In this document: in pieces, positions 3,712 to 30,089 of the stretch
How positions within the stretch are numbered: position 1 is the first letter of the stretch
Layout of the letters: every line of letters begins with the position of its first letter
From: Chlorokybus atmophyticus
Lineage: Eukaryota; Plantae; Mesostigma and Chlorokybus algae
Length of the DNA: 42,024 bases
Direction of reading: 5' to 3'
Assembly (NCBI GenBank): GCA_009103225.1
Contig: RHPI01002116.1
Coordinates: 1-42,024, forward strand
The notes under the pieces: generated by a model
What the model was told of the DNA's origin: nothing
Databases searched by the model: none
The model's input: the letters and a program-made list of their open reading frames with translations, nothing else
Made by a program: the position numbers and the translations under genes

Positions 3712-3946
3712 GATGCTGTATTGAGTGCTAACCAATTAAACCATTGGCAACAAGCCTTAAACGCTTCACAAGGCCTTGTAACCTGTGTGAAACACGCACA
3801 TGCACCTGTTCAAAGCGCGCGACGGACAGTGCAAGCAGACAGTGCGAAGCACACCCTGCCAACCAGATCACTTGAGCAGCTTTGCGAGCTCAAGCATAGT
3901 TGATACCCACGACAGGCTACGGGTTGCTGATCTCAAGTGCGTATCA

Positions 3947-4615
3947 TGTCATGCCAGCGGTCCATGAGGGGCCAACTTCCTCGAGGATGCCTACAGCCAA
4001 GCATCATTCCCGCGCTACCGGCATCACAGCACTTCCCCATCAGCTATGCCTACAGTCAGGCATAAACCCTGGCTACCAGCATGGGTCCCGCGCGACGCTG
4101 AGCAGTTGTGAGTCAGTCCTCGTAAGTACCCAGTATAGCCGAACTAGCTGATCCGTTGTGAGGTGACTTAGGTCTGATCTAGGTCATTTCGTAAACTAGC
4201 CGTTATCTTAGAACTGAACAGTTGTCACTTGACTATAAAGGCTTAGGACTTAGCCTCTGTACATTGATGACACTGTAAGTGAGAATTGAGAGACTTAGAA
4301 TAACGAAGTATGGATGTTGATCTTCGGAGTGCGTTGCACTTGCTCTCTAGAGGTTGTGGCTTGATGTGACTGCACCACCTCGACGCCCCGATTGCCAAGA
4401 CACATCTACACGTGAAAGAATGCAGCGTATGCACACGGGCATTGCTTGTCACTTGATGTGATTGTGATTGCGTGGGTGCGCGTTGTGTAGTCCGCATCAG
4501 AGTGTGGTATCTACCGGTTGCCGCATTCATACACCTGACTTAACAGTGGAATTGTCTTGACCTCATGCAAGGAACTGTATAAGCAGCACTACCTCTAGTA
4601 GTGGCTTGTTGACTT
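3947..4615 (+). repeat. Terminal repeat B1 (660 bp plus a 9-bp overlap with the start of repeat A)
   Basis: About 95% identical to 29115-29784 (about 32 differences by eye). Confidence 0.95.
4234..4239 (+). promoter_or_regulatory. Putative TATA box (TATAAA) of the Gypsy-like element
   Basis: Conserved in B2 at 29403-29408. Lies about 30 nt upstream of the putative self-primer sequence at 4266. Confidence 0.55.
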
Positions 4616-11394: not shown

Positions 11395-12733
11395 GGTTGC
11401 TGCCCTCACATCACGGATGGATGAGCTTCACGCAATGCCGAAGGGCAAGCAGGATGAATACCGCGCGTGCTACACGGCGCGCTGGGCAACAATGGCAGCC
11501 AAGCGTAAGGCAGTCGCCACGCCCGCGCGCATACAGCCACCACGGCGAGCCCGAGGAGACGCCGGGCCATCCGCCATAGGGGAAGCAGCTGGGTCTGCAA
11601 GTCAAGCGGCAACAACAGCAGCGACCACCGCAGCATCATCACTAGCTGCCACCACTGGGGCCTCAAGATCATTATCTGCGTCCGCGGCAGAACCTGCGGA
11701 TCTCACCGTCTCAACTGCCACGCAAGCGGCCACGGCAGCAACTGCCGGTGCGGTCAACGAAGGGCTCGCGGCAACCATCGCTGCGACCTCCGCCGTCCTC
11801 GCTGCCGAGTCGATGACAGCAGCTTCACCAGCAGCAACCATCGCCGCTGTCAACACAACTGCGCAGCCCATTAGTACTGTGGCTACCGCCCAGTACTGTA
11901 TCGGTGCTTTGGAAATAACCATGGCTGGACCATCGACGTGCACCGCGGCTGCCACAGGAGCAGGGCCCTTCACGTCCACGACAGCAGAGGCAGCCTCAAC
12001 CGGCGCAGTTGACGTGCCAACAGCAGTGCGCCCGCCCGTTCAGGGGCCGATCCAAACAGCGGCTGGCATGCCTATCACCCCGGCTTATGCAGGAGGTGAT
12101 CAGTTCATGTAGCGCGTTGCCGAGGACGCTCTGCTATATGGTGTCGATGATGTCCCTCTCCACCGTCAAGAGCTGGGTCACGACTTTCGCAACCCTCGCA
12201 TCACTGATGAGACCCTCACCATGTTCTGGGATCTGTACAACCGTCATCGGTTGGCTTCAGAGCACCCAGTCTTGCTGGAACCACCCAACCAAGAGCCATC
12301 CAACCTAAACCACTTCGACAACTTGGACCCACAGGTGGTTCAACTGTTTCGAGCATTTGCTGCGCGCCCGCTGGGCGACGATCCCGAGCTGAACACGTGC
12401 TCATGGCGTGAGCAATGCCGTCGCTTCTACGCACTGGATCGGGCTCGCCAATTTCGTGAGCAGCCAGAACAAGTGGTCCGCTGCCGCGAGCGGGACTACT
12501 ATGAAGATGTGCAGCGAGACATAGACGAAGCGCCACTTGGAGTCATTATCAACGACACCCGCGCTGAAGCACATGGCAACATTTGGGTGAACAGGCCGCA
12601 GTATCCCACCAATGAGGACAGGGAGCGCATTAGACTTGCTCAGACGAGGGCGTTGAGCAGGTATTTTAGGGGGGAAATCGCCGCTCTCATCGTCAACATG
12701 ATCAATACGTGGCCAGCAAATCAGTGTCAACTA
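11395..12733 (+). pseudogene. Gypsy polyprotein segment 2: Ala/Thr-rich linker plus unknown domain
   Basis: Frame continues across TSD GAGGT (AEDTEV|VAALTSRM). The 12221 ORF is in the same frame past TAG at 12110-12112. Confidence 0.75.
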
Positions 12734-13190
12734 TGTTGACATACACACGTGCAAGTGACACGCCAACAACATCAACACAAGAGTATGACTGCTATTGCCG
12801 CCATAGCATATGCACACATGCTACATCGTGACCTCTCATCTTCATTGCAACAAGTCTGGGCTTTATACCCCGCCAGTCTCTACACACGTCCACATTGGCA
12901 AGCACCGCGTGCGCTATACTCAGCCGATTGCTGTTCTGTAAGCTACGCTGTCTAGCTCACAACCAGAGCTTTTCAACAAGCTAAGCCACGTCTGCTAAGC
13001 TTACGTATCCACAAAGCTACGCGATTTCTCCCAAGGCTCTACCAAGCAGCCTGGTCCGGAGTCCGTCATGACTCGACCGTCTTGCTAAGTCTGGAGTCCA
13101 CGCGCTTCTTCCTGGTACCTTCGACCCTCGACTCCTGTATGAAGGGCAAGCTGACCGGACACAAGCATCACCCATGTAATACCTTCAACA
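12734..13190 (-). mobile_element. Solo LTR (457 bp) of a second, related Copia family; TSD AACTA
   Basis: TG...CA ends; AACTA at 12729-12733 and 13191-13195. Shares blocks with the Copia LTR (GACTTAGCAAGA, GCTTGTTGAAAAGCTCTGGTTGT, GCTGAGTATAGC, GGTATAA). Confidence 0.9.
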
Positions 13191-13195
13191 AACTA

Positions 13196-13729
13196 GGGAG
13201 GGGGTATCTTCAGCAAGGAGCCCACCCTCATCTCGCTGGTCAACAAACATACGGGGAGCGACAGTTGCGGACACGGCTACTGTAGGAAGCCATCCGGGGG
13301 ACGTTGCAACAACAGGGCTGGGAGGGCGCCGCACTCAGAGGGATGCTGCGACTGCAGCAAAGCACGGGAGAACGGGCTTAAGTACTCACGTGGTTGATCA
13401 ACCACCCCGCAGTTCCACTGTTCGCATTCCCTTCGAGACTGCATTAGATGAGTGCGTTCATGCGCTCTGTACGGCAAGCCTACGATCAAGTGGTGGACCA
13501 ACTGCCTCCCTACGGCATTCGTAACAGAGTCACCATGGAGGTCGCCCTCATGCATCTACCAGGCATTGAGGCAGCACGGCAGCTTCGGCGCATCGCTCAG
13601 GCCTATGACAACCAACGTCGACAGCAGGACTCGCCCGACACCCTGCGTGGGCGAGCCATGACAGTGATCGACGTCGGAATCATCGGAGGTCGATGGGATA
13701 CGTACATGCGGAGCATTCTTGGACTACCC
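13196..13729 (+). pseudogene. Gypsy polyprotein segment 3 (unknown domain, several stops)
   Basis: Reading rejoins across AACTA (NQCQL|GRGYLQ) and across TACCC (ILGLP|TISDALRR). Confidence 0.65.
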
Positions 13730-16700
13730 TGTTGAAGGACTAGCATGCACATGTAGCTGAGGCAAGCATGGATGCACAGAGACAGAGCTACCGCCACCAG
13801 AGCATACACAGGTCACATCACATTCATCTATTACAAGTTGTCCGCTGGTTCTTATACCAGCCAGTTACACACACGTCTACGTTTGCAAGCACTGCGTAAG
13901 CTATACTCAGCCTTTTGACGCGCTCTAAGTTGTGTTGTCTTCCTTACAACCAGAGCTTTCCAACAAGCTCTTACACGTCTAATATGAGTAAGTATACGCG
14001 GAGATACGAAGCAGTTAGTAAGGCTCCAGTCTGGAGTCCGGAGTCTGGTCCGACGATGCCATCTTGCTAAGTCCGGACCTAGTGCTCGTCCTTACGACCT
14101 TCTACTCCTGTGTGGAGGGTCGATGCTGATCGTATGTAGGAATACTCTCAACACTCCCACGCGAGCAGCTTGACCTCCAACGCTTGCTCCTGTAGTCAGA
14201 CACAAATGCCAAGTCCTGCACAACAAGTCTTGAACTTGAGTGGTGACAATGGCTTTGTCATGAAGTCCGCCAGCATGCCCTCGGTGTTGCAGTACTGGAA
14301 CTCCACCTCCTTCCTTGTGACTCTGTCACGCACAAAGTGATGCATGACATCAATGTGCTTCGTCCTTGCCGAGGCGATAGGGTGCTTCAACAACTTGATG
14401 GCTCCTTGGTTGTCACAGTTGATGACGATGCACGCCATGGGGTGCTCCAAGTCTGCCATGAGCTTGCGAAGCCAGAGTGCCTCCTTCACTGCTGCTGCCG
14501 CTGCCATGTACTCAGCCTCTGATGTAGATGCTGCTGTTGTTGGCTGCAGCCTGCTGTTCCAGCTCACCACGCCTCCGTTCAGCTTGAAGACGTAGCCTGT
14601 AGTGGACCTCCTGCTGTTGAGGTCACCAGCAAAGTCCGAGTCGCAGTAGCCCTCCAACTCAGTGCTCCCGCTCCCAAACTTGATGCCAACTGTTGCGCTC
14701 CCAGCAACATAGCGTAGTACTCCCTTTGCTGCTCTCCAGTGCTCCATGCTCGGTGCAGACATGTAGCGAGCAAGTACTCCCACAGCATGTGCAACATCGG
14801 GACGTGTGCACACTGCCAGATAGAGCATGCTGCCTACCAGCTCACCATATGGATACTGAGCCTTGTCGAGTACCTCCTCATCCTTTGCCTTGATGAGGGC
14901 AGTGCCAAGTGCCAACGGTGTGGTCTTGGTCTTCGCTTCAGTGAGCCCAAACTTGGTGACGAGTCTTCTCACCATCTGCTCCTGACTGATCTTGATTGTG
15001 CGAGCCGCCCTGTCGCGCTCAATCACCATGCCAAGGAACCACTTGGCCTCTCCAAGATCACGAACTGAGAATGCTTGCTGTAGAGCAAGTTTCGTCTCCT
15101 GCAGGTGGTGCACCTGCCTGGCGGTGATGATGATATCATCAACATACACGAGCAGCCAGACCTTGTTGTCTGCATGGATGAAGAGCCCAGGGTCTGCAGA
15201 GGATGCGGTGAAGCCAAGTGCCTCCAGCTCCTTGGTGAGCTTGATGTGCCACATACGCGGTGCCTGTCGCAGCCCGTACAGTGCCTTGATCAGCTTGCAC
15301 GCTGTGCCTCTCTCCCCTTCTTCATATCCAGGTGGTTGCTCGATGAAGATCTCCTCCTCCAGCTCTCCGTAGAGGAAGGCAGTCTTCACATCCAGGTGAT
15401 GCAGCTCTAGGTCTTCAGCAGCAACCATAGCTAGCAGTGCACGGAAGGTGGTATGCTTACTTGCAGGTGCAAACACTTCGTTGAAGTCCACACCTTCCTG
15501 CTGCAAGAAGCCCTTTGCCACCAGTCTTGCCTTGTAGCGCTCAATGTTGCCCTGACCATCACGCTTCACCTTGAAGACCCATTTCACTGGAATGGTCTTC
15601 ACTCCTTGCGGTAACTGCTCCAGTGACCAAGTGTTGTTGGCATGGAGTGACGCAATCTCCTCGTCCATAGCACGCTGCCATTGCTCCGCATCTGGTGCTA
15701 ACAATGCCTCCTCGTAGGTGCTTGGCTCCTCATTCTGCACACTGGCGACGTGTGCCTTGTGTAGGAAGTCAGGTGCCTTTCTCTCCCTCACTGGGTATCT
15801 CCGAGCTGCGTGCTCCTGCTGCAGGTGCGACTGCTTGTCTGCTACAGTGGAGTCCTGCTCACCCTTATCGTCGATGATGGCCTTGCCTGTAGCCTCCACT
15901 GTTTCAAGATGCTCCGGCTGTGCTTCATCTTCAGGAAAGAAGCCTGCTTCTGGTTGTGATAATCCCTCGTGGAAAACCACCTCTCTGCTCACGATGATCT
16001 TCTGAGTGTCCTCGAGCAAGATCCTGTAAGCCTTGGAACCCGGTTCATAGCCAACGAAGATGCCCTTCTTGCTGACCGGCTCCAGCTTGTGCCTGAGCTG
16101 TTTAGGCACTAGTGCATATGCCGTGCATCCAAACACACGCATACCACTCACATCTGGTGTGGCTCCATAGAAGTGCTCCCACGGAGTCTTCTGCTCTGAG
16201 CTCACCGGAGACCTGTTGCGGATGTAGTTGGCAGTGAGTACCGCCTCCTTCCACAAACTGTCTTCCATCTTTGTGTCGTTGAGCATGGCTCGAACACGCT
16301 CCAAGAGTGTCCTGTTGAGGCGTTCAGCTGCTCCATTCTGCTGCGGGGTGTAGGGTGCCGTTGTCTCGTGGCGTATGCCCTTGCTGGCGAAGAACTCCTT
16401 CAACTCCTTGTTGATGTACTCCCCTCCTCGATCACTCCTCATTGCCTTCATCTTGTTGCCAGACTGGGTCTCCAACAAGGCTACAACTGTGCGCACAGCT
16501 CCAGCAACTTCTGACTTCAGTGTCAACGGAAAGATGATGGACAGCTTGCTGTAGTCGTCGAGGAATGTAGCAAAGTACCTGGCCCCTCCCTTCGCCACAA
16601 TGCGCATAGGGCCACAGACATCCATGTGCACAAGCTCGCAAGGATGCTGACTGCTAGAAGAGGATGATGGGAATGGCATAGCATGCTGCTTTGCAACCAG

Positions 16701-18634
16701 GCATGGTTCACAAAGTGCACCTGATGCATTCTTGAGTTCTTCTGTGCTGAGATGGATGCCCTTGACCATCTTCTCAGCGACAAGGCGAGTGAGGTTGACG
16801 TAGCTGAGATGCCCGAACCTTCGATGCCACAATGTTGGCGACTCCTTGTCCTTCACCACCATGGCTTGAATGTCTCTGTCTTGAGGCTGCTCCACGTGGT
16901 AGAGCCCTCCCGGATCAGCGATTCCAACCATGTGCACGACCCCATCAAGGATGACTGAGCAGCCACCCTTCCGAAATAGGATCTCCGCGCCTAAGCGCTC
17001 CGCAACCCTCACAGAGAATAGACTCGCAATAGCCTTAGGAACATGCAGGACGTTGCGTAACAACACCTCGCGTAGTGTGTTACCAACCTTGCACTGGAGT
17101 CGTACGTTGCCAACTCCCTCAGCCACCAGTACTTCGCCACCGAAGCCCGCCACCTTGATTGTGGACGTCAGCTTCCTGTAGCCCTCCATCACCTCCTTGT
17201 TTGGTGTGAGATGACGATCGCAGCCAGAGTCCACCACCCAGAAAGCTGTGCCCGCCCTCGAACTGGATGCAGTGAAGGCGACATGTTTCTCCTTGTGTTG
17301 GTGCTCGTTGCCGCTGTTGCTGGTGCTTGCTCTAGGTTGCCCCTGTTGTTTCTTCCTACAGTCCTTCACAATGTGCCCCTTCCAACCACACCAGTGGCAT
17401 GTGAGGTCTTTGTGACGAGGATTGCCTGGCTTGTTGCCCTTGTACTTCTCTTCATGGTTGCTCTTCTTTGCGTGCTTGCCGGTGTAGAAGGCGACGGCAT
17501 CCGCTTGCTCGTCCTTCTTCACAACCCTCTGCTCCACGGTGAGCAGCTTCGGTAGCACATCGTCCAACGTCAACTCCGATGATGACGTCTCCAGCAGGGT
17601 TGCGACGACCTCGTACTCTGCTGGTAGCCCTGCAACAATGGCCAGCACTACCTCCGTCTCCCCCATGTTGTGGCCGACGTTGATGAGGTCCGCCCACAGC
17701 TCTCTCGCGCGCGCAACATACTTTGTGATGGGTTCTGCTGCCTCCTTCCTGAGTGCGCTGAGCTGCTTGCGTAGATGCAACTTTCTGGCATTGTTCTTGG
17801 CTCTGAAAACGGCTGATAGCTTTTCCCAAGCTTGTCTACCATCTTCACATGCAGTGAGCATGGGAAAGTGATGCGGTTTGCTGTTCAACACAAGCAAAGA
17901 GTGTGCTTCTGCTGAATGCTCTGACCACACAGTGTTCGCTCCTGGTGTTGGTGGTGGTGCCTTCGGATCAACGTACTTCCACACCTTCTTGTGGATGAGC
18001 AAGGCCTTCATCTCCACGCACCATGTGTTGTAGTTGTCGGTGTCCAGCTTTGCAATCTGCCCCTTGTCGTAGGTCGCCTCCATCTTTGTCGCTCCTGCCT
18101 TCCTTGCAGTTGACACCCAAGGCTCTGCTACTAACAAGCTACCGTAGTGTAGAACTACTATGCACACAAGCTAGTCTCACACTCCTCAAGCGTAGTGTGG
18201 GCCCATAACCTGTTGAAGGACTAGCATGCACATGTAGCTGAGGCAAGCATGGATGCACAGAGACAGAGCTACCGCCACCAGAGCATACACAGGTCACATC
18301 ACATTCATCTATTACAAGTTGTCCGCTGGTTCTTATACCAGCCAGTTACACACACGTCTACGTTTGCAAGCACTGCGTAAGCTATACTCAGCCTTTTGAC
18401 GCGCTCTAAGTTGTGTTGTCTTCCTTACAACCAGAGCTTTTCAACAAGCTCTTACACGTCTAATATGAGTAAGTATACGCGGAGATACGAAGCAGTTAGT
18501 AAGGCTCCAGTCTGGAGTCCGGAGTCTGGTCCGACGATGCCATCTTGCTAAGTCCGGACCTAGTGCTCGTCCTTACGACCTTCTACTCCTGTGTGGAGGG
18601 TCGATGCTGATCGTATGTAGGAATACTCTCAACA
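13730..18634 (-). mobile_element. Ty1/Copia copy C, full-length and very young; TSD TACCC
   Basis: LTRs at 13730-14153 and 18211-18634 (424 bp, 1 difference seen). TACCC at 13725-13729 and 18635-18639. Confidence 0.98.
14196..18083 (-). CDS. pol: Intact Copia gag-pol polyprotein (1295 aa from ATG 18083)
   Basis: Uninterrupted ORF with CCHC, DSG protease, D-D-E integrase, YVDD RT and RNase H motifs. Confidence 0.96.
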   Translation of the reverse strand: MEATYDKGQIAKLDTDNYNTWCVEMKALLIHKKVWKYVDPKAPPPTPGANTVWSEHSAEAHSLLVLNSKPHHFPMLTACEDGRQAWEKLSAVFRAKNNARKLHLRKQLSALRKEAAEPITKYVARARELWADLINVGHNMGETEVVLAIVAGLPAEYEVVATLLETSSSELTLDDVLPKLLTVEQRVVKKDEQADAVAFYTGKHAKKSNHEEKYKGNKPGNPRHKDLTCHWCGWKGHIVKDCRKKQQGQPRASTSNSGNEHQHKEKHVAFTASSSRAGTAFWVVDSGCDRHLTPNKEVMEGYRKLTSTIKVAGFGGEVLVAEGVGNVRLQCKVGNTLREVLLRNVLHVPKAIASLFSVRVAERLGAEILFRKGGCSVILDGVVHMVGIADPGGLYHVEQPQDRDIQAMVVKDKESPTLWHRRFGHLSYVNLTRLVAEKMVKGIHLSTEELKNASGALCEPCLVAKQHAMPFPSSSSSSQHPCELVHMDVCGPMRIVAKGGARYFATFLDDYSKLSIIFPLTLKSEVAGAVRTVVALLETQSGNKMKAMRSDRGGEYINKELKEFFASKGIRHETTAPYTPQQNGAAERLNRTLLERVRAMLNDTKMEDSLWKEAVLTANYIRNRSPVSSEQKTPWEHFYGATPDVSGMRVFGCTAYALVPKQLRHKLEPVSKKGIFVGYEPGSKAYRILLEDTQKIIVSREVVFHEGLSQPEAGFFPEDEAQPEHLETVEATGKAIIDDKGEQDSTVADKQSHLQQEHAARRYPVRERKAPDFLHKAHVASVQNEEPSTYEEALLAPDAEQWQRAMDEEIASLHANNTWSLEQLPQGVKTIPVKWVFKVKRDGQGNIERYKARLVAKGFLQQEGVDFNEVFAPASKHTTFRALLAMVAAEDLELHHLDVKTAFLYGELEEEIFIEQPPGYEEGERGTACKLIKALYGLRQAPRMWHIKLTKELEALGFTASSADPGLFIHADNKVWLLVYVDDIIITARQVHHLQETKLALQQAFSVRDLGEAKWFLGMVIERDRAARTIKISQEQMVRRLVTKFGLTEAKTKTTPLALGTALIKAKDEEVLDKAQYPYGELVGSMLYLAVCTRPDVAHAVGVLARYMSAPSMEHWRAAKGVLRYVAGSATVGIKFGSGSTELEGYCDSDFAGDLNSRRSTTGYVFKLNGGVVSWNSRLQPTTAASTSEAEYMAAAAAVKEALWLRKLMADLEHPMACIVINCDNQGAIKLLKHPIASARTKHIDVMHHFVRDRVTRKEVEFQYCNTEGMLADFMTKPLSPLKFKTCCAGLGICV

Positions 18635-18639
18635 TACCC

Positions 18640-19780
18640 ACCATTAGCGACGCCTTGAGAAGGCAGCTGGTACGCGCCGTCTACCTCACGCCTATACCTC
18701 TGGTGGAAGAGTTCGACGACTGGCGTTACCACCCTTTAGCCACATGAGAGGGAACGCTGGTGCGGGAGGCCGCTCATGCACTCTACTGGACTAACAGGGA
18801 GGCAGTGACAACAATGGAACGCGTGCCTCCACCACCACCACCAGCAGCCCCTGGTATGGACCCAACTCCTCGTCGCAATGCACCACCGGCTCCGGTATCA
18901 CCCGGACAAGGGCTAGGGCAGGGGGGTGGAACCGGACGGAAGGAAGTGCACAAGGACAGGGCATTGCTCTTGCTGCAGGAAGAGGAGCCATGGCAGCCTT
19001 GAGGTCCGGCACTCTGGAGCTACATCCCACAGCTAACGCTGTTCCTCGATGTCCCATTGATCGCGTGCGGCTCAACGCCAACGCCGTCATGGTTGCCAAC
19101 CAGGGCAAGCATGTGCAAATCAACGGACGCGCACCCAAACGCGTCATGTTGGACGGAGGGGCACAACCATGTATCATTGGCAGACACTTGGCCAAAGCCT
19201 TGGGGCTCACGGCAGCGTCGCTGGTCAGTTGCCCTTTTGAGATTGACATCGCCACGGGAGGACGCAAAAGCCCTGTTGGATCACCAAGGAAGTCCTCACC
19301 ATCACCCTGACTGGGCTAGACCCCACGCACACCACTCAGCTGGCCCAGCAATGTGTGGTTACCAACGCCACCAGCTATAATTTGTTCGGGCAGGACTTTA
19401 GTTACCCCATAGCCATCGGCATGGACAACTGGACCGAGCAAGCATGGTTCAGGCCCGGCTGGCGCAGCGGAGATGGTTCTGTCATTGGGTTCATCCCCCT
19501 CGACCTGGTGTTGCCCACACGTGCACGCCGGCTTATGGGAGCCACCGCTACAGCTGTCGCCACATCCCTCATGCCATACTCCGACACGCAGGAAACAGCA
19601 ACCCAGGAGGTAGCCTTGCAAGACCCAACAGAACGGCGCTGGAGAGCAGAGGTGGATGCGCGCGTGTTGCTGGACAAGAAGCCCTTTCCCAGACGCTTCC
19701 CGGGTTACCACGAGGACGTCCCACTTGCGGAGCAATTCACCGTGGCCACCGGAGTCGTGGACTTCAGTGCGGCACGACGC
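18640..19780 (+). pseudogene. Gypsy polyprotein segment 4: Pro-rich linker and retropepsin-like protease
   Basis: KRVMLDGGAQPCIIG (D at 19152-19154), then TNATSYNLFGQDF. Frameshifts near 18930-19000 and 19270-19310. Confidence 0.78.
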
Positions 19781-19999
19781 TTACAAGGAGTCACGTTGCT
19801 GGAACTGTTCGGCGAGATTGGCAGCGGCTTGGCGGCACTCCTCAACACCGGTATTAAGGTAACACAGTATTACTACTGCGACCCTGATCCGCATGCCCAG
19901 ACTGCTGGCCGCCATCATCTGCGTCAGTTGCACTTGCGTTATCCACACCTCCTACCATTGTCTGCATTACGTGGAAGTCGTAAGGCGCTGCCTCAAGAC
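19781..19999 (+). pseudogene. C5 cytosine DNA methyltransferase domain, N-terminal part (SAM-binding motifs)
   Basis: TLLELFGEIGSGL (motif I FxGxG-like, 19799-19831) and YYYCD (motif II), in frame downstream of the protease C-terminal part. Confidence 0.87.
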
Positions 20000-20296
20000 T
20001 GTTGAGAGTATTCCAACATACGATCAGCATCGACCCTCCACACAGGAGTAGAAGGTCGTAAGGACGAGCACTAGGTCCGGACTTAGCAAGATGGCATCGT
20101 CGGACCAGACTCCGGACTCCAGACTGGAGCCTTACTAACTGCTTCGTATCTCCGCGTATACTTACTCATATTGAGCGTGTAAGAGCTTGTTGAAAAGCTC
20201 TGGTTGTAAGGAAGACAACACAACTTAGAGCGCGTCAAAAGGCTGAGTATAGCTTACGCAGTGCTTGCAAACGTAGACGTGTGTGTAACTGGCTGG

Positions 20297-20322
20297 TATA
20301 AGAACCAGCGGACAACTTGTAA
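20297..20322 (+). promoter_or_regulatory. Putative TATA (TATAA) and chlorophyte-type poly(A) signal (TGTAA) in the Copia LTR
   Basis: GGTATAA is conserved in the diverged solo LTR family. TGTAA at 20318-20322. Function is inferred only. Confidence 0.4.
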
Positions 20323-20550
20323 TAGATGAATGTGATGTGACTTGTGTATGCTCTGGTGGCGGTAGCTCTGTCCGTGTGTATCCATGCTTGCCTCAGCTAC
20401 ATGTGCATGCTAGTCCTTCAACAGGTTATGGGCCCACACTACGCTTGAGGAGTGTGAGACTAGCTTGTGTGCATAGTAGTTCTACACTACGGTAGCTTGT
20501 TGGTAGCAGAGCCTTGGGTGTCAACTGCAAGGAAGGCAGGAGCGACAGAA

Positions 20551-23500
20551 ATGGAGGCGACCTACGACAAGGGGCAGATTGCAAAGCTGGACACCGACAA
20601 CTACAACACATGGTGCGTGGAGATGAAGGCCTTGCTCATCCACAAGAAGGTGTGGAAGTACGTTGATCCGAAGGCACCACCACCAACACCAGGAGCGAAC
20701 ACTGTGTGGTCAGAGCATTCAGCAGAAGCACACTCTTTGCTTGTGTTGAACAGCAAACCGCATCACTTTCCCATGCTCACTGCATGTGAAGATGGTAGAC
20801 AAGCTTGGGAAAAGCTATCAGCCGTTTTCAGAGCCAAGAACAATGCCAGAAAGTTGCATCTACGCAAGCAGCTCAGCGCACTCAGGAAGGAGGCAGCAGA
20901 ACCCATCACAAAGTATGTTGCGCGCGCGAGAGAGCTGTGGGCGGACCTCATCAACGTCGGCCACAACATGGGGGAGACGGAGGTAGTGCTGGCCATTGTT
21001 GCAGGGCTACCAGCAGAGTACGAGGTCGTCGCAACCCTGCTGGAGACGTCATCATCGGAGTTGACGTTGGACGATGTGCTACCGAAGCTGCTCACCGTGG
21101 AGCAGAGGGTTGTGAAGAAGGACGAGCAAGCGGATGCCGTCGCCTTCTACACCGGCAAGCACGCAAAGAAGAGCAACCATGAAGAGAAGTACAAGGGCAA
21201 CAAGCCAGGCAATCCTCGTCACAAAGACCTCACATGCCACTGGTGTGGTTGGAAGGGGCACATTGTGAAGGACTGTAGGAAGAAACAACAGGGGCAACCT
21301 AGAGCAAGCACCAGCAACAGCGGCAACGAGCACCAACACAAGGAGAAACATGTCGCCTTCACTGCATCCAGTTCGAGGGCGGGCACAGCTTTCTGGGTGG
21401 TGGACTCTGGCTGCGATCGTCATCTCACACCAAACAAGGAGGTGATGGAGGGCTACAGGAAGCTGACGTCCACAATCAAGGTGGCGGGCTTCGGTGGCGA
21501 AGTACTGGTGGCTGAGGGAGTTGGCAACGTACGACTCCAGTGCAAGGTTGGTAACACACTACGCGAGGTGTTGTTACGCAACGTCCTGCATGTTCCTAAG
21601 GCTATTGCGAGTCTATTCTCTGTGAGGGTTGCGGAGCGCTTAGGCGCGGAGATCCTATTTCGGAAGGGTGGCTGCTCAGTCATCCTTGATGGGGTCGTGC
21701 ACATGGTTGGAATCGCTGATCCGGGAGGGCTCTACCACGTGGAGCAGCCTCAAGACAGAGACATTCAAGCCATGGTGGTGAAGGACAAGGAGTCGCCAAC
21801 ATTGTGGCATCGAAGGTTCGGGCATCTCAGCTACGTCAACCTCACTCGCCTTGTCGCTGAGAAGATGGTCAAGGGCATCCATCTCAGCACAGAAGAACTC
21901 AAGAATGCATCAGGTGCACTTTGTGAACCATGCCTGGTTGCAAAGCAGCATGCTATGCCATTCCCATCATCCTCTTCTAGCAGTCAGCATCCTTGCGAGC
22001 TTGTGCACATGGATGTCTGTGGCCCTATGCGCATTGTGGCGAAGGGAGGGGCCAGGTACTTTGCTACATTCCTCGACGACTACAGCAAGCTGTCCATCAT
22101 CTTTCCATTGACGCTCAAGTCAGAAGTTGCTGGAGCTGTGCGCACAGTCGTGGCCTTGTTGGAGACCCAGTCTGGCAACAAGATGAAGGCAATGAGGAGT
22201 GATCGAGGAGGGGAGTACATCAACAAGGAGTTGAAGGAGTTCTTCGCCAGCAAGGGCATACGCCACGAGACAACGGCACCCTACACCCCGCAGCAGAATG
22301 GAGCAGCTGAACGCCTCAACAGGACACTCTTGGAGCGTGTTCGAGCCATGCTCAACGACACAAAGATGGAAGACAGTCTGTGGAAGGAGGCGGTACTCAC
22401 TGCCAACTACATCCGCAACAGGTCTCCGGTGAGCTCAGAGCAGAAGACTCCGTGGGAGCACTTCTATGGAGCCACACCAGATGTGAGTGGTATGCGTGTG
22501 TTTGGATGCACGGCATATGCACTAGTGCCTAAACAGCTCAGGCACAAGCTGGAGCCGGTCAGCAAGAAGGGCATCTTCGTTGGCTATGAACCGGGTTCCA
22601 AGGCTTACAGGATCTTGCTCGAGGACACTCAGAAGATCATCGTGAGCAGAGAGGTGGTTTTCCACGAGGGATTATCACAACCAGAAGCAGGCTTCTTTCC
22701 TGAAGATGAAGCACAGCCGGAGCATCCTGAAACAGTGGAGGCTACAGGCAAGGCCATCATCGACGATAAGGGTGAGCAGGACTCCACTGTAGCAGACAAG
22801 CAGTCGCACCTGCAGCAGGAGCACGCAGCTCGGAGATACCCAGTGAGGGAGAGAAAGGCACCTGACTTCCTACACAAGGCACACGTCGCCAGTGTGCACA
22901 ATGAGGAGCCAAGCACCTACGAGGAGGCATTGTTAGCACCCGATGCGGAGCAATGGCAGCGTGCTATGGACGAGAAGATTGCGTCACTCCATGCCAACAA
23001 CACTTGGTCACTGGAGCAGTTACCGCAAGGAGTGAAGACCATTCAAGTGAAATGGGTCTTCAAGGTGAAGCGTGATGGTCAGGGCAACATTGAGCGCTAC
23101 AAGGCAGAACTGGTGGCAAAGGGCTTCTTGCAGCAGGAAGGTGTGGACTTCAACGAAGTGTTTGCACCTGCAAGTAAGCATACCACTTTCCGTGCACTGC
23201 TAGCTATGGTTGCTGCTGAAGACCTAGAGCTGCATCACCTGGATGTGAAGACTGCCTTCCTCTACGGAGAGCTGGAGGAGGAGATCTTCATCGAGCAACC
23301 ACCTGGATATGAAGAAGGGGAGAGAGGCACAGCGTGCAAGCTGATCAAGGCACTGTACGGGCTGCGACAGGCACCGCGTATGTGGCACATCAAGCTCACC
23401 AAGGAGCTGGAGGCACTTGGCTTCACCGCATCCTCTGCAGACCCTGGGCTCTTCATCCATGCAGACAACAAGGTCTGGCTGCTCGTGTATGTTGATGATA

Positions 23501-24438
23501 TCATCATCACCGCTAGGCAGGTGCACCACTTGCAGGAGACGAAACTTGCTCTACAGCAAGCATTCTCAGTTCGTGATCTTGGAGAGGCCAAGTGGTTCCT
23601 TGGCATGGTGATTGAGCGCGACAGGGCGGCTCGCACAATCAAGATCAGTCAGGAGCAGATGGTGAGAAGACTCGTCACCAAGTTTGGGCTCACTGAAGCG
23701 AAGACCAAGACCACACCGTTGGCACTTGGCACTGCCCTCATCAAGGCAAAGGATGAGGAGGTACTCGACAAGGCTCAGTATCCATATGGTGAGCTGGTAG
23801 GCAGCATGCTCTATCTGGCAGTGTGCACACGTCCCGATGTTGCACATGCTGTGGGAGTACTTACTCGCTACATGTCTGCACCGAGCATGGAGCACTGGAG
23901 AGCAGCAAAGGGAGTACTATGCTATGTTGCTGGGAGCGCAACAGTTGGCATCAAGTTTGGGAGCGGGAGCACTGAGTTGGAGGGCTACTGCGACTCGGAC
24001 TTTGCTGGTGACCTCAACAGCAGGAGGTCCACTACAGGCTACGTCTTCAAGCTGAACGGAGGCGTGGTGAGCTGGAACAGCAGGCTGCAGCCAACAACAG
24101 CAGCATCTACATCAGAGGCTGAGTACATGGCAGCGGCAGCAGCAGTGAAGGAGGCACTCTGGCTTCGCAAGCTCATGACAGACTTGGAGCACCCCATGGC
24201 GTGCATCGTCATCAACTGTGACAACCAAGGAGCCATCAAGTTGTTGAAGCATCCTATCGCCTCGGCAAGGACGAAGCACATTTATGTCATGCATCACTTT
24301 GTGCGTGACAGAGTCACAAGGAAGGAGGTGGAGTTCCAGTACTGCAACACCGAACGCATGCTGGCGGACTTCATGACAAAGCCATTGTCACCACTCAAGT
24401 TCAAGACTTGTTGTGCAGGACTTGGCATCTGTGTTTGA
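20551..24438 (+). CDS. pol: Open Copia gag-pol polyprotein (1295 aa)
   Basis: Uninterrupted ORF with all domains. A few changes at conserved sites relative to copy C (KARL>KAEL, HIDV>HIYV, IPVKW>IQVKW). Confidence 0.95.
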   Translation: MEATYDKGQIAKLDTDNYNTWCVEMKALLIHKKVWKYVDPKAPPPTPGANTVWSEHSAEAHSLLVLNSKPHHFPMLTACEDGRQAWEKLSAVFRAKNNARKLHLRKQLSALRKEAAEPITKYVARARELWADLINVGHNMGETEVVLAIVAGLPAEYEVVATLLETSSSELTLDDVLPKLLTVEQRVVKKDEQADAVAFYTGKHAKKSNHEEKYKGNKPGNPRHKDLTCHWCGWKGHIVKDCRKKQQGQPRASTSNSGNEHQHKEKHVAFTASSSRAGTAFWVVDSGCDRHLTPNKEVMEGYRKLTSTIKVAGFGGEVLVAEGVGNVRLQCKVGNTLREVLLRNVLHVPKAIASLFSVRVAERLGAEILFRKGGCSVILDGVVHMVGIADPGGLYHVEQPQDRDIQAMVVKDKESPTLWHRRFGHLSYVNLTRLVAEKMVKGIHLSTEELKNASGALCEPCLVAKQHAMPFPSSSSSSQHPCELVHMDVCGPMRIVAKGGARYFATFLDDYSKLSIIFPLTLKSEVAGAVRTVVALLETQSGNKMKAMRSDRGGEYINKELKEFFASKGIRHETTAPYTPQQNGAAERLNRTLLERVRAMLNDTKMEDSLWKEAVLTANYIRNRSPVSSEQKTPWEHFYGATPDVSGMRVFGCTAYALVPKQLRHKLEPVSKKGIFVGYEPGSKAYRILLEDTQKIIVSREVVFHEGLSQPEAGFFPEDEAQPEHPETVEATGKAIIDDKGEQDSTVADKQSHLQQEHAARRYPVRERKAPDFLHKAHVASVHNEEPSTYEEALLAPDAEQWQRAMDEKIASLHANNTWSLEQLPQGVKTIQVKWVFKVKRDGQGNIERYKAELVAKGFLQQEGVDFNEVFAPASKHTTFRALLAMVAAEDLELHHLDVKTAFLYGELEEEIFIEQPPGYEEGERGTACKLIKALYGLRQAPRMWHIKLTKELEALGFTASSADPGLFIHADNKVWLLVYVDDIIITARQVHHLQETKLALQQAFSVRDLGEAKWFLGMVIERDRAARTIKISQEQMVRRLVTKFGLTEAKTKTTPLALGTALIKAKDEEVLDKAQYPYGELVGSMLYLAVCTRPDVAHAVGVLTRYMSAPSMEHWRAAKGVLCYVAGSATVGIKFGSGSTELEGYCDSDFAGDLNSRRSTTGYVFKLNGGVVSWNSRLQPTTAASTSEAEYMAAAAAVKEALWLRKLMTDLEHPMACIVINCDNQGAIKLLKHPIASARTKHIYVMHHFVRDRVTRKEVEFQYCNTERMLADFMTKPLSPLKFKTCCAGLGICV

Positions 24439-24909
24439 CTACAGGAGCAAGCGTTGGAGGTCAAGCTGCTCGCGTGGGAGTGTTGAGAGTATTCCTACAT
24501 ACGATCAGCATCGACCCTCCACACAGGAGTAGAAGGTCGTAAGGACGAGCACTAGGTCCGGACTTAGCAAGATGGCATCGTCGGACCAGACTCCGGACTC
24601 CAGACTGGAGCCTTACTAACTGCTTCGTATCTCCGCGTATACTTACTCATATTGAGCGTGTAAGAGCTTGTTGAAAAGCTCTGGTTGTAAGGAAGACAAC
24701 ACAACTTAGAGCGCGTCAAAAGGCTGAGTATAGCTTACGCAGTGCTTGCAAACGTAGACGTGTGTGTAACTGGCTGGTATAAGAACCAGCGGACAACTTG
24801 TAATAGATGAATGTGATGTGACTTGTGTATGCTCTGGTGGCGGTAGCTCTGTCCGTGTGTATCCATGCTTGCCTCAGCTACATGTGCATGCTAGTCCTTC
24901 AACAAAGAC

Positions 24910-25677
24910 ATCCGCCTCATCTCAGCTGATCATCTCATTGCCTTGGGCAATGTCGATCTGTTAATTGCTGGATGGGAGTGCCAAGGTTACTCCAAGGCCG
25001 GCACAGGACAGGGGTTGGACGACCCACGCTCCACCCTTTTCTGAGAGCTGCTGCGAGTCATCCACCTGCTGCAGCACCACCAAATTCAATGTCCCCTGGC
25101 GTACAATATCGAGAACGTCCACTCTGAGGACGATCGCCGTTACCACGTGCAACACAGCTATTGTGTGGTATGCTCCATCCTTGAACATCAAACCAAGATA
25201 AACGCTGCTCGGCATGGGTCACGTGCACATCGCGTCCGTGCCAAGTGGACCAACCTTGCCGCCGTGGAAGAGCTGACAGCCGCAGAGCATCTACTCATTT
25301 GACGTTCCAACAACTTGTTTGTGGATGACATCCGCGACGCTGACAGAACATCGCAACCCGTCTCTCGCCACGGCCACGCCCACTTCCATCAGTGCAACCA
25401 ATCGGGCGAACCACGCAGAGTACTCCCCACGCTGGTCTCATATTCAGGCTCTTATGCTTTCCGAGATGGCGGGGACGGCATGGTCTTTGACCGCACAACG
25501 AACCGACTGGAAGAACCCAACGCACGTGAGCGCGAACGCGCCATGGGTTTCTTTCCGGGCAGCATCACCAGCTGCGCGCTAACCGATAGTCAACAGAGGC
25601 AACTCCTAGGTCGTGCCATGGACCAAAACAGTATGGTTTGGCTACTGAAAATCTGCTTCGCCATTCAAGACCGATAG
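24910..25677 (+). pseudogene. C5 cytosine DNA methyltransferase domain, catalytic C-terminal part
   Basis: Manual translation: IRLISADHLIALGNVDLLIAGWECQGYS (motif IV Cys at 24979-24981), IENV (25111-25119), AHRVRAKWTN, EPNARERERAMGF, RQLLGRAMD. TGA at 25042 and 25300. Confidence 0.92.
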
Positions 25678-27240
25678 GTGTCTCTCAAGGATCTCAAACA
25701 CCTGTCTGGGGGGTGGGTCAATTGCTCCGACGCTGTCGTGGCCCACATCGCCCTGAAGATCGCTCACATGGAGGAGCGGGTAGCAGTCACAGTGGAGGAC
25801 ATCCATGTGAAGGCAACCGCCACGTCATGGGATCACGCCATGGAACCCTTGGCAACAGGCTCTGTGAAGGAACAGTTGGAGTCGCTCCTCAACAAATGGA
25901 GAGCTCTGTTCAGTTTCAACGTCAAGAAGCTGGGCAAGTGTTCAGTGTACCAGATGGACATCAACCTCGTCGACGAAGAACTGGCGTTCAGAAGACAGTA
26001 CAAGCTGTCTAAGTTGGAGGAAGACTTGGTGGAACAGCGATGCAAGGCATTGCTGGAGGCGGGACTCATCGAGGAATCCACGTCCGACTTCGCTGCCGCC
26101 ACAGTCATGCCCCTCAAGAAGGACTCAGAGGGCAACTGACAGAACGGCGGATGTGTGGGGATTATTGCCCACTCAACAACAAAACCAAGCAGGATCGGTT
26201 ATCAATGCCAACCGCAGAGGGCATCTTCGACGACGTCGGCTCGTGTACCGTGTTCAGCATTCTGGACATGCGGCAGGGGTACAACCAGATCGAGATCAAG
26301 CCCGAAGACAAGCACAAAACGGCATTTTGGGGCAACCGGCAGGTGTACACTGGAAGGTCATGCCTTTCGGGCTGAAGAACGCGCCAGCAAAGTTCCAGCG
26401 CGTAATGGACAAGGCGTTGAAGGGGTGCTCCTTCGCGCGGTGCTACATCCACGACATCCTGATCTTCAGCCACACCGCAGAGGAGCATCTCCTCCACATC
26501 GAGGAGGTACTACTAAGGAGAGTTCAGGCAGTAGGGATGACTGTGCACCCCGACAAGTGCACTTTCTTCACCCACAAGGAACCCTACCTCGGCCACATGA
26601 TCGTGCCCAACGGCGTATACGTTCAGCAGGCCAAGGTGGAAGCTCGGCATCTATTCCAGCCCCGACAGAGCTGACTCGACTGCGTGCCTTCCTCGGCCTC
26701 GCCAACTACTATATGAGGTTCGTCAAAGACTTCGCTAAGGTGGCGCGCCCCCTCAACGAACTCCTCAAGAAAGAGACAGAGTGGAGCTAAAAGGAGGCCC
26801 AGCAACAGGCTTTCGAGGAGCTGAAGCACAGGCTCACATCAGCCCCCATTTTGCATCGACCAGACTACACCAAGCCCTTTGTTCTCCACACCAACTGGAG
26901 CAAACTCGGCATGGGTGCTGTCTTGGTCCAGCTCAATGATACAAGAAGGAACGGGTGGTGTCCTACGCCAGCCGCAGCAACAACAGCGCTGAAGCCAATC
27001 ACAGCAGTTACGAGGGCGAGTGCCTTGCCGCTGTATGGGTCATCTCCTTCTTCAGACCATTCATGTTCGGGAGACAGTTCTCGCTAATCACCGACCACCA
27101 GCTGCTGCGCTGGCTCATGACCAATCAACACCTTACGGGCAAGTTGGCCAGGTGGGCCTTGCTGCTACAGGAGTACGTTTCAAGATCACCCACCGGACAG
27201 GCCTGGCCAACCAGGACGCGGATGGCCTCAGTCGCAACCC
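25678..27240 (+). pseudogene. pol: Gypsy-type reverse transcriptase and RNase H (frameshifted)
   Basis: RRMCGDY, ILDMRQGYNQI, VMPFGLKNAP, YIHD (26444-26455, normally YxDD), LRAFLGLANYY, FVLHTNWS, SYEGECLA, TDHQ, NQDADGLSR. About four frameshifts. Confidence 0.95.
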
Positions 27241-27469: not shown

Positions 27470-28640
27470 ACGTCAAAACATCTGGCTGGACAAGAACTCC
27501 ATGGCCTACCTACAGCATGGACAGCATATAGCAGGACTGAGCGCGCGTGAACGGGACTGCGTCAGTCAGCGCTGCCAGAACTACCGATGGGAGGATGGAC
27601 TCGTCTTTCGGCGTGTCCACATCCACAACAAAGAAGTTCCGGCGCTGCACCGTCGCGAGGGCATCATCTCTGCACTCCACACGAAGCTAGGTCATTTCGG
27701 TGTCAATCATACCGACAGCTTGGTGAGTGCCCAATACTGGTGGCATGGCATGCACACTCAGGTTCGCACTCTTGTCGCAAGCTGCGCGCATTGCGACCTT
27801 GTGCGTGCCAGCCTCAACACCCGTACCAGCACGCTTCATCCGCTGCCTATAGCCGGCATGTTCTACCGGTGGGGACTGGACATCCTTGAAGATTTGGCAC
27901 CCTCAGCTCGTAGCAACAAGTACATCCTCGTCATGATCGAACACTTCTTCAAGTGGGTTGAGCTGGTCCCCCTTCCCGACAAAAGCAGCAGGGGAACCGC
28001 TCAGGCGTTCCTCGACCATGTGCTCAGTCGCTTCGGCTCATGTGCTGAAGTCATTACCGACCAAGGGGCAGAATTCCGCGGCGAGTTCGACACCTTGCTG
28101 GATCGCTCCTACATCGACCACCGGCGGACCTCTCGTGACCATCCGCAGGCAGATGGACTGGCGGAGCGTATTGTCCAGACCATCAAGAAGGCCTTGCGCA
28201 AGTACGTCATCGACCACGAGAAACGCACCTGAGATGACTACCTCCCCTTGATAGCACTAGGCTATCAGCTTTCCAAACAGGCTTCCTTGCGCATGTACAG
28301 CCCATACCAGCTGCTTTTTGGCAGGGAACCCTTACTCCCGTTCCGCGCTAAAAAGGAAGTGGAACGCGTGCTGGACAACCTCGACGACCCTGTGGCTATG
28401 CTGCACGACATGCAGCAGCGCGCCTACCTGTTCGCGCACGTCATCCCCATGGCCATGGGCAACCTCCGCATTGCTCAGCACCGGGACACACTGCGCTACG
28501 AACGCGTCCGCAGTGGGTTCTACAAGCAGCGCAGCCGCCGCTTCGAGGCGGGCGACTACGATTACCGTATGACCCAGACCAAAGACACCCTTGACATCAG
28601 TGTCAAACGCGTCGTCTACAAAGACCTAAAGGTGCTCCCT
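27470..28640 (+). pseudogene. DDE integrase
   Basis: LHTKLGHFG...CAHC (HHCC), WGLDI, VITDQG, GLAER. TGA at 28230-28232 in KRT*DDYLP. Confidence 0.95.
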
Positions 28641-28684
28641 TTGGAGTTCTGGACTTACTCGGCAACGACGACGATGACGCACTC

Positions 28685-28813
28685 ATGATGTTGTGCGACG
28701 GGTGCAACAACGGCATGCACTGCTACTGCCTCGACCCGCCAAAGGACACTGTGCCCCTGGAGGCATATTCGTGTGAGGACTGTCGCATCCATGGTCCTCC
28801 TCATTCCCGCTGA
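28685..28813 (+). pseudogene. PHD finger (C-terminal three-quarters) ending the polyprotein
   Basis: MLCDGCNNGMHCYCLDPPKDTVPLEAYSCEDC matches the PHD C4HC3 pattern. The first CxxC pair is missing. Not in the ORF track. Confidence 0.85.
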
Positions 28814-28849: not shown

Positions 28850-28862
28850 AGAGGGGGTGGCT
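28850..28862 (+). promoter_or_regulatory. Putative polypurine tract AGAGGGGGTGGCT before repeat A1
   Basis: Purine-rich run immediately 5' of the TG at 28863. Confidence 0.6.
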
Positions 28863-29112
28863 TGTTGACTTGCTCTTATTAGCATTATCAGCAACGCATT
28901 TCATTACTCAGAGCACGCAGCACCACATCGTATCACATGTCATTAACATCATATGAGTTGTCCCCACAAGTAGGTACAGGCAGGGGGGTATCCTTTGCCT
29001 CCCGCACTGTGCAGCTACACAATCGACAGCCCACCAGGCTGGCCTCATTCCCTGTCATGACAATACAGTTGGGATCGACCCGGAGAGGCACACGACCCTG
29101 CCAGGCCCGACA
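28863..29112 (+). repeat. Repeat A1 (250 bp, TG...CA)
   Basis: 3 differences from 29776-30025. Confidence 0.96.
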
Positions 29113-29114
29113 GC

Positions 29115-29775
29115 TGTCATGCCAGCGGTCCAGGAGGGGCCAACTTCCTAGAGGATGCCTACAGCCAAGCATCATTCCCGCGCTACCGGCATCACAGCAC
29201 TTCCCCATCAGCTATGCCTACAGTCAGGCATCAACCCTGGTTACCAGCATGGGTCCCGCGCGACGCTGAGCAGTTTTGAGTCAGTCCTCGTAAGTACCGT
29301 AGTATAGACGAACTAGCTGATCCGTTGTGAGTTGACTTAGGTCTGATCTAGGTCATTTCGTAAACTAGCCGTTATTTTAGAACTGAACAGTCGTCACTTG
29401 ACTATAAAGGCTTAGGACTTTGACTCTGTACGTTGATGACACTGTAAGTGAGAATTGAGAGACTTGGAGAAACGAAGTAAGGATGCTGACTTTCGGAGTG
29501 CGTTGGACTTGCTCTCTGGAGGTTGTGGCTTGATGTGACTGCACCACCTCGACGCCCCGGTTGCCAAGATACATCTACACGTGAGAGAATGCAGCGTATG
29601 CACACAGGCATTGCTTGTCACTTGATGTGATTGTGGTTGCGTGGGTGCACGTTGTGTAGTCCGCATCAGAGTGTGGTATCTACCGGTTGCCGCATTCATA
29701 CACCTCACTTAACAGTGAAATTATCTTGACCTCATGCAAGGAACTGTATAAGCAGCACTACCTCTAGTAGTGGCT
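29115..29775 (+). repeat. Repeat B2 (661 bp)
   Basis: Direct repeat of 3947-4606. Separated from A1 by the dinucleotide GC within the palindrome GACAGCTGTC (29109-29118). Confidence 0.96.
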
Positions 29776-30025
29776 TGTTGACTTGCTCTTGTTAGCATTA
29801 TCAGCAACGCATTTCATTACTCAGAGCACGCAGCACCACATCGTATCACATGTCATTAACATCATATGGGTTGTCCCCACAAGTAGGTACAGGCAGGGGG
29901 GTATCCTTTGCCTCCCGCACTGTGCAGCTACACAATCGACAGCCCACCAGGCTGGCCTCATTCCCTGTCATGAAAATACAGTTGGGATCGACCCGGAGAG
30001 GCACACGACCCTGCCAGGCCCGACA
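29776..30025 (+). repeat. Terminal repeat A2 (250 bp)
   Basis: Copy of A1; followed by TSD ATCA. Confidence 0.96.
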
Positions 30026-30089
30026 ATCATTGGGCAAGCTCAGTCGCACACCTCACACCGCATCTGGATGGTAGTCTGCGGTTGAGCCG

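What the first reader, a model, noticed from the sequence alone, without database searches (positions are those of the whole stretch)
19781..25677. C5 DNA cytosine methyltransferase embedded in the retrotransposon polyprotein between protease and RT, hidden by a Copia insertion
Seen: removing Copia D at TSD AAGAC joins ...ALPQD|IRLISAD... in frame. The joined frame gives motif I (LELFGEIG), II (YYYCD), IV (AGWECQG, with Glu instead of the usual Pro before the catalytic Cys), VI (ENV), VIII (AHRVRAKWTN), IX (ERERAMGF) and X (LLGRAMD). Established: retrotransposon-borne DNMTs were reported in dinoflagellate elements and charophyte Ty3/Gypsy elements (de Mendoza et al. 2018), so the fusion has precedent. 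Inference: the element could methylate its own cDNA or locus, or alter host chromatin. If the host is a chlorophyte this may extend the known range. This copy is dead (two TGA stops, G>E in motif I, the insertion).
Basis: partly seen in the sequence, partly recalled or inferred. Interest (0 to 1): 0.85.

Follow-up and report, generated by a model that had tools for sequence, protein, structure and literature searches.

The report
Copia-split DNMT3 in algal Gypsy retrotransposon
This is a dead copy of a jumping gene, in what is likely a green alga, that carries a DNMT3-type DNA-methylating domain (here split by a second jumping gene) which likely marks the element's own new DNA copies; the design is already described in the alga Klebsormidium, but relatives are far more numerous than reported and reach other green algae.

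Summary
Confirmed. A young Copia (20000-24904, TSD AAGAC) splits a C5-methyltransferase domain in frame, between protease and RT of a Ty3/Gypsy element. Sibling contigs and intact relatives carry the domain uninterrupted, so it is not a host-gene fragment. It is DNMT3-type by profile and by the fold of a relative.

The host element spans 3947-30025, with DIRS-like split repeats (A-coding-B-A-B), TG..CA ends, a 4-bp TSD, a DDE integrase and a PHD finger. That matches KnitGypsy-Dnmt3 (de Mendoza 2018), and RT and DNMT trees group it with a Klebsormidium nitens protein.

Corrections: Glu before the catalytic Cys is the family's majority state (99 of 166), not decay. The copy is more broken than stated, including an unlisted TAG before RT. 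The host was not established; named nearest relatives are streptophyte algae.

Added: a large family under purifying selection, in two layouts; the second (DNMT between RNase H and integrase) includes a chlorophyte, Scenedesmus. Activity and substrate are inferred. The scan found this kind before, in this genome and others.

Verdict: new member of a known kind.

The parts
3943..3946 (.). Left target-site duplication ATCA of the host Gypsy element (right copy 30026-30029)
3947..4615 (+). Repeat A1; starts TGTC; last ~15 nt equal the start of repeat B
5061..6487 (+). gag-like frame with zinc knuckle (about 6174-6224), one internal stop
6488..11389 (+). Copia B insertion, TSD GAGGT, LTRs differ at 12 of 422, ORF broken
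11395..19000 (+). Long gag-protease linker of the host element (11395-12733, 13196-13729, 18640-19000), no recognised domain
12734..13190 (.). Solo LTR of an older, related Copia family (about 68% to the Copia LTRs), TSD AACTA
13730..18634 (-). Copia C insertion, TSD TACCC, intact ORF, 99% to Copia D
19065..19510 (+). Aspartic protease, frame break near 19280
19781..19999 (+). DNMT3-type methyltransferase, N half (motifs I, II; family-specific helical insert)
20000..24904 (+). Copia D insertion, TSD AAGAC, intact 1295-aa ORF
24910..25674 (+). DNMT3-type methyltransferase, C half (motifs IV, VI, VIII, IX, X), two TGA stops
25675..25677 (+). In-frame TAG between DNMT and RT; decay or programmed stop, unresolved
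25990..27176 (+). Reverse transcriptase and RNase H, several frame breaks
27477..28640 (+). DDE integrase with H2C2 zinc domain, one stop at 28230
28667..28783 (+). PHD finger at the end of pol
   Evidence: PF00628, E 4.1e-9
28850..28857 (+). Purine run (PPT-like) directly before repeat B1
   Evidence: role inferred
28857..29112 (+). Repeat B1
29109..29118 (.). Palindrome GACAGCTGTC at the B1-A2 junction; its halves equal the two ends of the element
29115..29784 (+). Repeat A2 (differs from A1 at 31 of 654 compared positions)
29770..30025 (+). Repeat B2 (differs from B1 at 3 of 256); ends GACA

Best explanation
This is a dead copy of a split-repeat Ty3/Gypsy retrotransposon of the KnitGypsy-Dnmt3 kind, whose pol region holds a DNMT3-type cytosine methyltransferase between protease and RT that in intact copies likely rides into the particle with Gag-Pol and likely methylates the element's own new DNA before or as it integrates. 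Shown: the domain, its position, its DNMT3 type, its presence in siblings, long co-inheritance with RT and purifying selection. Inferred: that it is active, that the protease releases it, and that its substrate is the element's cDNA, probably a joined-end form that the integrase opens at the palindrome between repeats B and A. The benefit would be that the new copy arrives already marked like host DNA.
For: Junction, TSD and frame; uninterrupted siblings; 20 relatives among 3085 candidates, best 44-48% identical, incl. K. nitens KFL_009030040 with order PR-DNMT-RT-RH-INT; profile best matches DNMT3A 1.5e-23, then DRM-type 4e-14, then HhaI 1.2e-9; model of relative P0006's domain pLDDT 91.4, best fold match DNMT3B E 2.1e-19, TM 0.72; catalytic Cys and motif VI Glu in 166 of 166, both motif VIII Arg in 165 of 166; dN/dS 0.03-0.17 in the 8 comparable pairs of 55 among 11 loci, and 19 of 33 listed sibling differences synonymous against 25% expected; RT and DNMT trees split the same two layouts (99/98 and 100/99); A-coding-B-A-B repeats as stated for KnitGypsy-Dnmt3.
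Against: No activity shown for any Gypsy-borne member: the K. nitens domain gave no methylation in yeast (inconclusive per its authors). Most relatives have Glu where characterised C5 enzymes have Pro before the catalytic Cys, with unknown effect. The element is not CpG-poor compared with its neighbours (CpG o/e 0.78 for the element, 0.92 in the DNMT, 0.59 in Copia D, 0.71-0.77 in flanks). The fold model is of a relative, not of this copy. No tree with host DNMT3 sequences could be built. In the integrase tree one type I row (L038, long branch) fell outside the group.
Confidence: 0.6

Rival explanations
1. Same element, but the methyltransferase acts in trans or after integration, on host chromatin or on the insertion locus, guided by the integrase PHD finger.
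For: PHD at the end of pol here and in 73 of 188 stored DNMT-bearing proteins; some relatives end the Gag-PR-DNMT frame at a stop, which would make the enzyme in bulk.
Against: A pol-borne domain is normally confined to the particle and pre-integration complex (general knowledge of LTR elements). K. nitens has a plant-like methylome despite these elements.
Confidence: 0.15
2. The domain is kept for binding rather than catalysis (DNA clamp on the cDNA ends or palindrome, or an RNA substrate).
For: Glu for Pro in motif IV in 99 of 166 relatives; no activity of the K. nitens domain in yeast.
Against: Catalytic Cys, motif VI Glu, motif VIII Arg and the SAM-binding Gly are invariant or nearly so; human DNMT3B also failed in the same yeast assay.
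Confidence: 0.2
3. In this family too the TAG at 25675 is a programmed leaky stop, so the enzyme is the tail of Gag-PR and RT is made by readthrough. This concerns expression and is compatible with the best explanation.
For: 14 of 19 related loci have an in-frame stop roughly 75-115 codons after the DNMT: TAG-CAR-YYA in 3, TAR-CAA-CCC in 10, a TAG-TAG in 1; 4 were frameshifted and 1 had none. Background TAG-CAR-YYA is 43 of 9912 TAGs. L003 has the RT most identical to this copy (58%).
Against: The window's TAG lies about 3 codons after the domain, reads TAG-GTG-TCT, and has no unusual 3' structure (z +0.52). P0007, P0031, P0038, P0289, P0022 and L038 read through the linker without a stop. The copy has many other stops.
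Confidence: 0.25
4. A host DNMT3 gene fragment landed by chance in one element copy.
For: None found.
Against: 139 of 188 stored DNMT-bearing proteins also carry PR, RT, RNase H or integrase; the other 49 show the domain alone, many as short pieces. Siblings carry it. No introns. Trees congruent.
Confidence: 0.02

Closest known systems
KnitGypsy-Dnmt3 of Klebsormidium nitens (de Mendoza et al. 2018, PMC5890265; read parts 1-4 of 7, further passages and supplement passages; figures not held)
   Same: Intronless DNMT3-type domain in pol of a Gypsy element; DIRS-like repeat arrangement; conserved catalytic residues; purifying selection. A K. nitens protein (KFL_009030040) has the same domain order, is 44% identical and groups with this copy in RT, integrase and DNMT trees.
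   Different: Different host and family. Motif IV is EC here, PC in the K. nitens protein. PHD finger after the integrase (the main text does not mention PHD). This copy is dead and four times interrupted. I could not confirm that KFL_009030040 is one of the paper's named copies.
SymbioDIRS-Dnmt3 (same paper)
   Same: DNMT3 in a retrotransposon pol ORF; A-coding-B-A-B repeats; two domain orders; shown to methylate CG de novo in yeast.
   Different: DIRS elements use a tyrosine recombinase; this one has a DDE integrase, protease, TG..CA ends and a 4-bp TSD.
EpiLTRs of Cymbomonas and Euglena (bioRxiv 10.64898/2026.05.21.726589; passages read, supplements closed)
   Same: LTR retrotransposons with a cytosine methyltransferase and a chromatin reader; one host is a chlorophyte.
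   Different: Their DNMT is sister to DNMT4, sits with a DAM domain and a chromodomain; here DNMT3-type, PHD, no DAM hit.
Gypsy-7a_cRei of Chlamydomonas reinhardtii (PMC9940879; passages read)
   Same: Green-algal Gypsy with a PHD finger in the polyprotein.
   Different: No methyltransferase in its listed domains; relationship not tested.

Membership tests
KnitGypsy-Dnmt3 kind | C5 methyltransferase of DNMT3 type, not rearranged | tested here: met
   (fold from relative P0006); motif order I-X
KnitGypsy-Dnmt3 kind | Gypsy domain set and order (gag, PR, RT, RNase H, DDE integrase) around the DNMT | tested here: met
KnitGypsy-Dnmt3 kind | DNMT in the same open frame as RT | tested here: inconclusive
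   same frame, but TAG at 25675 in this copy; open in P0007, P0031, P0038, P0289
KnitGypsy-Dnmt3 kind | DIRS-like repeats A-coding-B-A-B | tested here: met
   also L029
KnitGypsy-Dnmt3 kind | Key catalytic residues conserved, no introns | tested here: met
   for the family; this copy has lost the motif I Gly
KnitGypsy-Dnmt3 kind | Purifying selection on the DNMT | tested here: met
   (relatives; weaker data for direct siblings)
KnitGypsy-Dnmt3 kind | Groups with a K. nitens Gypsy-DNMT protein | tested here: met
   trees unrooted, place within the group unresolved
KnitGypsy-Dnmt3 kind | Methyltransferase activity | not testable with these tools
   not shown for the K. nitens enzyme either
Eukaryotic DNMT3 clade | Nests with host DNMT3s in a tree with other DNMT families | not tested
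   no reference DNMT sequences were held; only profile and fold ranks
DIRS/Ngaro retrotransposons | Tyrosine recombinase, no DDE integrase | tested here: not met
   rve and Integrase_H2C2 hits, TSD present
Troyka | CG..CG ends, 3-bp TSD (PMC12440569, parts 1-3 of 5 read) | tested here: not met
   TG..CA ends, 4-bp TSD
EpiLTR | DAM plus DNMT4-like domain plus chromodomain | tested here: not met

The most novel reading that the evidence does not exclude
This copy belongs to one old, green-lineage-wide Gypsy clade that integrates from an end-joined DNA form opened at a mid-LTR palindrome and that has kept a DNMT3 with an unusual Glu-Cys active-site motif to methylate that intermediate. The enzyme has moved once within pol (before RT in streptophyte-type elements, after RNase H in chlorophyte-type ones) and in one branch is made in bulk ahead of a leaky stop. 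The methylase and the DIRS-like replication would then be two sides of one strategy.
Probability: 0.3. Interest if true: 0.7.

Novelty: new member of a known kind. Interest (0 to 1): 0.42.

Why it matters
The fusion itself is published, and this copy is dead, so the finding alone is a further example. What it adds is scale and test material: hundreds of 50%-identity clusters score in this family, intact members exist, two domain orders and a Glu/Pro switch at the active site give natural comparisons, and a chlorophyte carries the second order. That makes the open question of de Mendoza 2018 (what a Gypsy-borne DNMT3 does, given that the one tested was silent in yeast) testable with other enzymes. 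The split ends also pose a question about how a DDE integrase uses such a substrate.

Tried and rejected
No whole genome was held, so copy number and host genes could not be examined. No RNA holder was listed; this says nothing on expression. Host identity: 14 window ORFs outside known domains gave no Pfam hit; Copia relatives were unnamed apart from distant ones; the ESM Atlas gave a streptophyte-rich DNMT cluster first (score 0.95) and uninformative integrase clusters. Troyka was considered for the odd repeats and rejected. A phage or bacterial origin of this domain got no support: IMG/VR gave 8 loci matching only short parts at E 1e-8 or weaker. A readthrough structure after the window's TAG was not found. 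A single-sequence fold of the unknown linker domain failed (pLDDT 36.6) and was not searched further. The palindrome is not significant by count in the window alone (18 of 100 shuffles as many); its weight comes from position and recurrence. The RT tree used a wrongly framed middle piece and was redone. CpG depletion as a sign of self-methylation was not seen. The N half alone found nothing in the PDB.
Full report
Observation. A Copia element at 20000-24904 begins TG, ends CA, has LTRs identical at 423 of 424 positions, an intact 1295-aa ORF and AAGAC on both sides. The codons left and right of it are in one frame. The C half (P0001, X at two TGA) hits PF00145 at E 3.1e-9; the N half alone has no Pfam hit. 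Both halves align to one contiguous stretch of single relatives and together cover 5-333 of a 334-position family profile (the N half was one of its 14 rows). A 265-nt contig of run X2 crosses the junction without the Copia, and a contig of run X1 does so for 12 letters. Either run could be related to the window's source, but the uninterrupted form differs from the window, so it is another copy.

The host element. Self-comparison shows repeats A (3947-4615, 29115-29784) and B (28857-29112, 29770-30025), i.e. A-coding-B-A-B, with ends TGTC..GACA and a 4-bp TSD ATCA. Inside lie gag with a zinc knuckle, protease, the DNMT, RT, RNase H, a DDE integrase and a PHD finger. Four insertions interrupt it, each with its own 5-bp TSD: Copia B, an older solo LTR, Copia C and Copia D. 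The copy has about seven frame breaks in pol, further stops, and differs at 8 of 56 near-invariant DNMT columns. It is dead well beyond the lesions first listed. Sibling contigs differ from it by single-base indels at two of the RT-region breaks.

What the domain is. A profile of 13 relatives plus the window's N half ranks DNMT3A first among solved structures (1.5e-23), then DRM-type enzymes (4e-14) and HhaI (1.2e-9). A model of relative P0006's domain (45% identical to the C half) has pLDDT 91.4 and matches DNMT3B best (E 2.1e-19, TM 0.72). Among 166 distinct related domains the catalytic Cys and the motif VI Glu are invariant and both motif VIII Arg occur in 165. The motif I Gly is present in all 146 rows with a residue there, so Glu in the window is copy-specific. 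I had no host DNMT3 sequences for a rooted tree, so DNMT3 type rests on profile and fold rank.

Family breadth. The profile finds 558 clusters at 50% identity with E<=1e-30, of which the best 150 were listed; I did not see the rest, and some may be host DNMT3s. Of 188 stored DNMT-bearing proteins (redundant cluster members included), 20 have the window's layout (after PR or before RT), 119 have the DNMT after RT/RNase H or directly before the integrase, and 49 show the domain alone. The two layouts are the two sides of one branch in the DNMT tree (18 v 17 rows, 100/99; 167 rows, 0.996) and in the RT tree (11 v 21 rows, 99/98). The integrase tree groups the window with K. nitens at 0.971 but leaves one long type I row outside. 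Trees are unrooted or weakly rooted and the window's place within its group is unresolved. Named members are K. nitens KFL_009030040 and Closterium GJP34393.1 in the window's layout, and Scenedesmus KAF8056149.1 in the other. dN/dS of the DNMT is 0.03-0.17 in the 8 of 55 locus pairs that were neither saturated nor identical; 19 of 33 listed sibling differences in the window's N-half region are synonymous against 25% expected (few contigs, and the window's own decay adds noise).

Ends. The B1-A2 junction is the palindrome GACAGCTGTC, whose halves are the element's two ends. The pattern GACAGYTGTC occurs in 6 of 60 loci, in both layouts; in 5 it lies 3' of pol and in L038 at the wrapped start of the contig. 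Most other loci stop short of that region or are unrelated methylases. L029 shows the whole A-B-A-B plan with TSD AAGG. A purine run precedes B1, and A1 ends in 15 nt equal to the start of B. The plan equals two ordinary LTRs (B+A) joined end to end and opened at one B-A junction. Unexplained: A copies differ at 31 of 654 positions, B copies at 3 of 256.

Expression. 14 of 19 related loci have an in-frame stop in the DNMT-RT linker, three with TAG-CAR-YYA, the tobamovirus readthrough motif (PMC3542737, passages), against 43 of 9912 TAGs in background. Ten of the 14 are close copies of one family. The window's TAG is at a different place, lacks that motif and has no unusual structure behind it. 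K. nitens and four other distinct proteins have an open linker. I read the window's TAG as decay (about 3 to 1), untested.

Mechanism. Most likely the domain is made as part of Gag-Pol, enters the particle, and methylates the new cDNA, so that the copy resembles host DNA or sets the chromatin of its insertion site. This is the hypothesis of de Mendoza et al. for DIRS-borne DNMT3. Against it: the K. nitens enzyme was silent in yeast, inconclusively, and the element is not CpG-poor.

Host. Not established. The window holds no recognisable host gene. Named relatives of this layout are streptophyte algae.

Known or new. KnitGypsy-Dnmt3 has the same design, including the DIRS-like repeats (PMC5890265, parts 1-4 of 7, passages and supplement passages; figures not held). 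Searches found no paper describing the second layout, a chlorophyte Gypsy-DNMT3, the Glu-Cys motif or the leaky stop. Two later papers cite the kind as streptophyte (bioRxiv 10.64898/2026.05.21.726589 and PMC12344493, passages), and the former reports a different DNMT in chlorophyte LTR elements. PMC11244446 and bioRxiv 10.1101/2021.11.30.470311 (passages) added nothing. The library lacks most subscription papers, and bioRxiv supplements were closed, so these gaps are soft. The scan itself noted this kind twice in this genome and at least eight times with the leaky stop in other genomes.

Verdict. Real, well supported, a new member of a known kind. Interest 0.42.

Noticed in passing
window 1-3711, 6488-11389, 13730-18634, 20000-24904: Four copies of one Copia family, 97-99% alike, within 25 kb; three are nested in the same Gypsy element and two have intact ORFs and near-identical LTRs. 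Suggests a recent burst with a preference for this repeat-rich site.
   Followed up: partly
window 3947-4615 v 29115-29784; 28857-29112 v 29770-30025: A repeats differ by 4.7% but B repeats by 1.2%, less than the LTRs of nested Copia B (2.8%). Gene conversion, assembly collapse or a feature of replication; unexplained.
   Followed up: no
window 11395-12733, 13196-13729, 18640-19000: About 750 codons between gag and protease with no Pfam hit and no match among stored relatives; 12113-12736 reads like a globular domain, but a single-sequence fold failed.
   Followed up: partly
window 12734-13190: Solo LTR of an older related Copia family with TSD AACTA, a fourth insertion in the host element.
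   Followed up: yes
window 38991-42024: Chromovirus-type Gypsy 3' part on the minus strand (integrase, SH3, chromodomain) with about 1 kb repeated at a 2048-nt spacing.
   Followed up: no
L001:5083, L002:2081, L003:4509, L004:10988: Conserved in-frame stop followed by CAR-YY between DNMT and RT in one branch of relatives; likely programmed readthrough. L001 also folds better than shuffles just after it (z -2.7).
   Followed up: partly
P0201 (KAF8056149.1, Scenedesmus); L020-L027: Second layout with the DNMT between RNase H and integrase, the commoner one in these searches; L025 and L027 share the end palindrome.
   Followed up: partly
window-wide: CC and GG dinucleotides are under-represented (o/e about 0.56-0.87) and TG/CA over-represented (1.25-1.56) in elements and flanks alike; cause not examined.
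   Followed up: no
window 33174-33710 v 38512-38869; 34692-34907: A diverged non-coding repeat (67-79%) just after each of two assembly gaps, and a long CT microsatellite.
   Followed up: no
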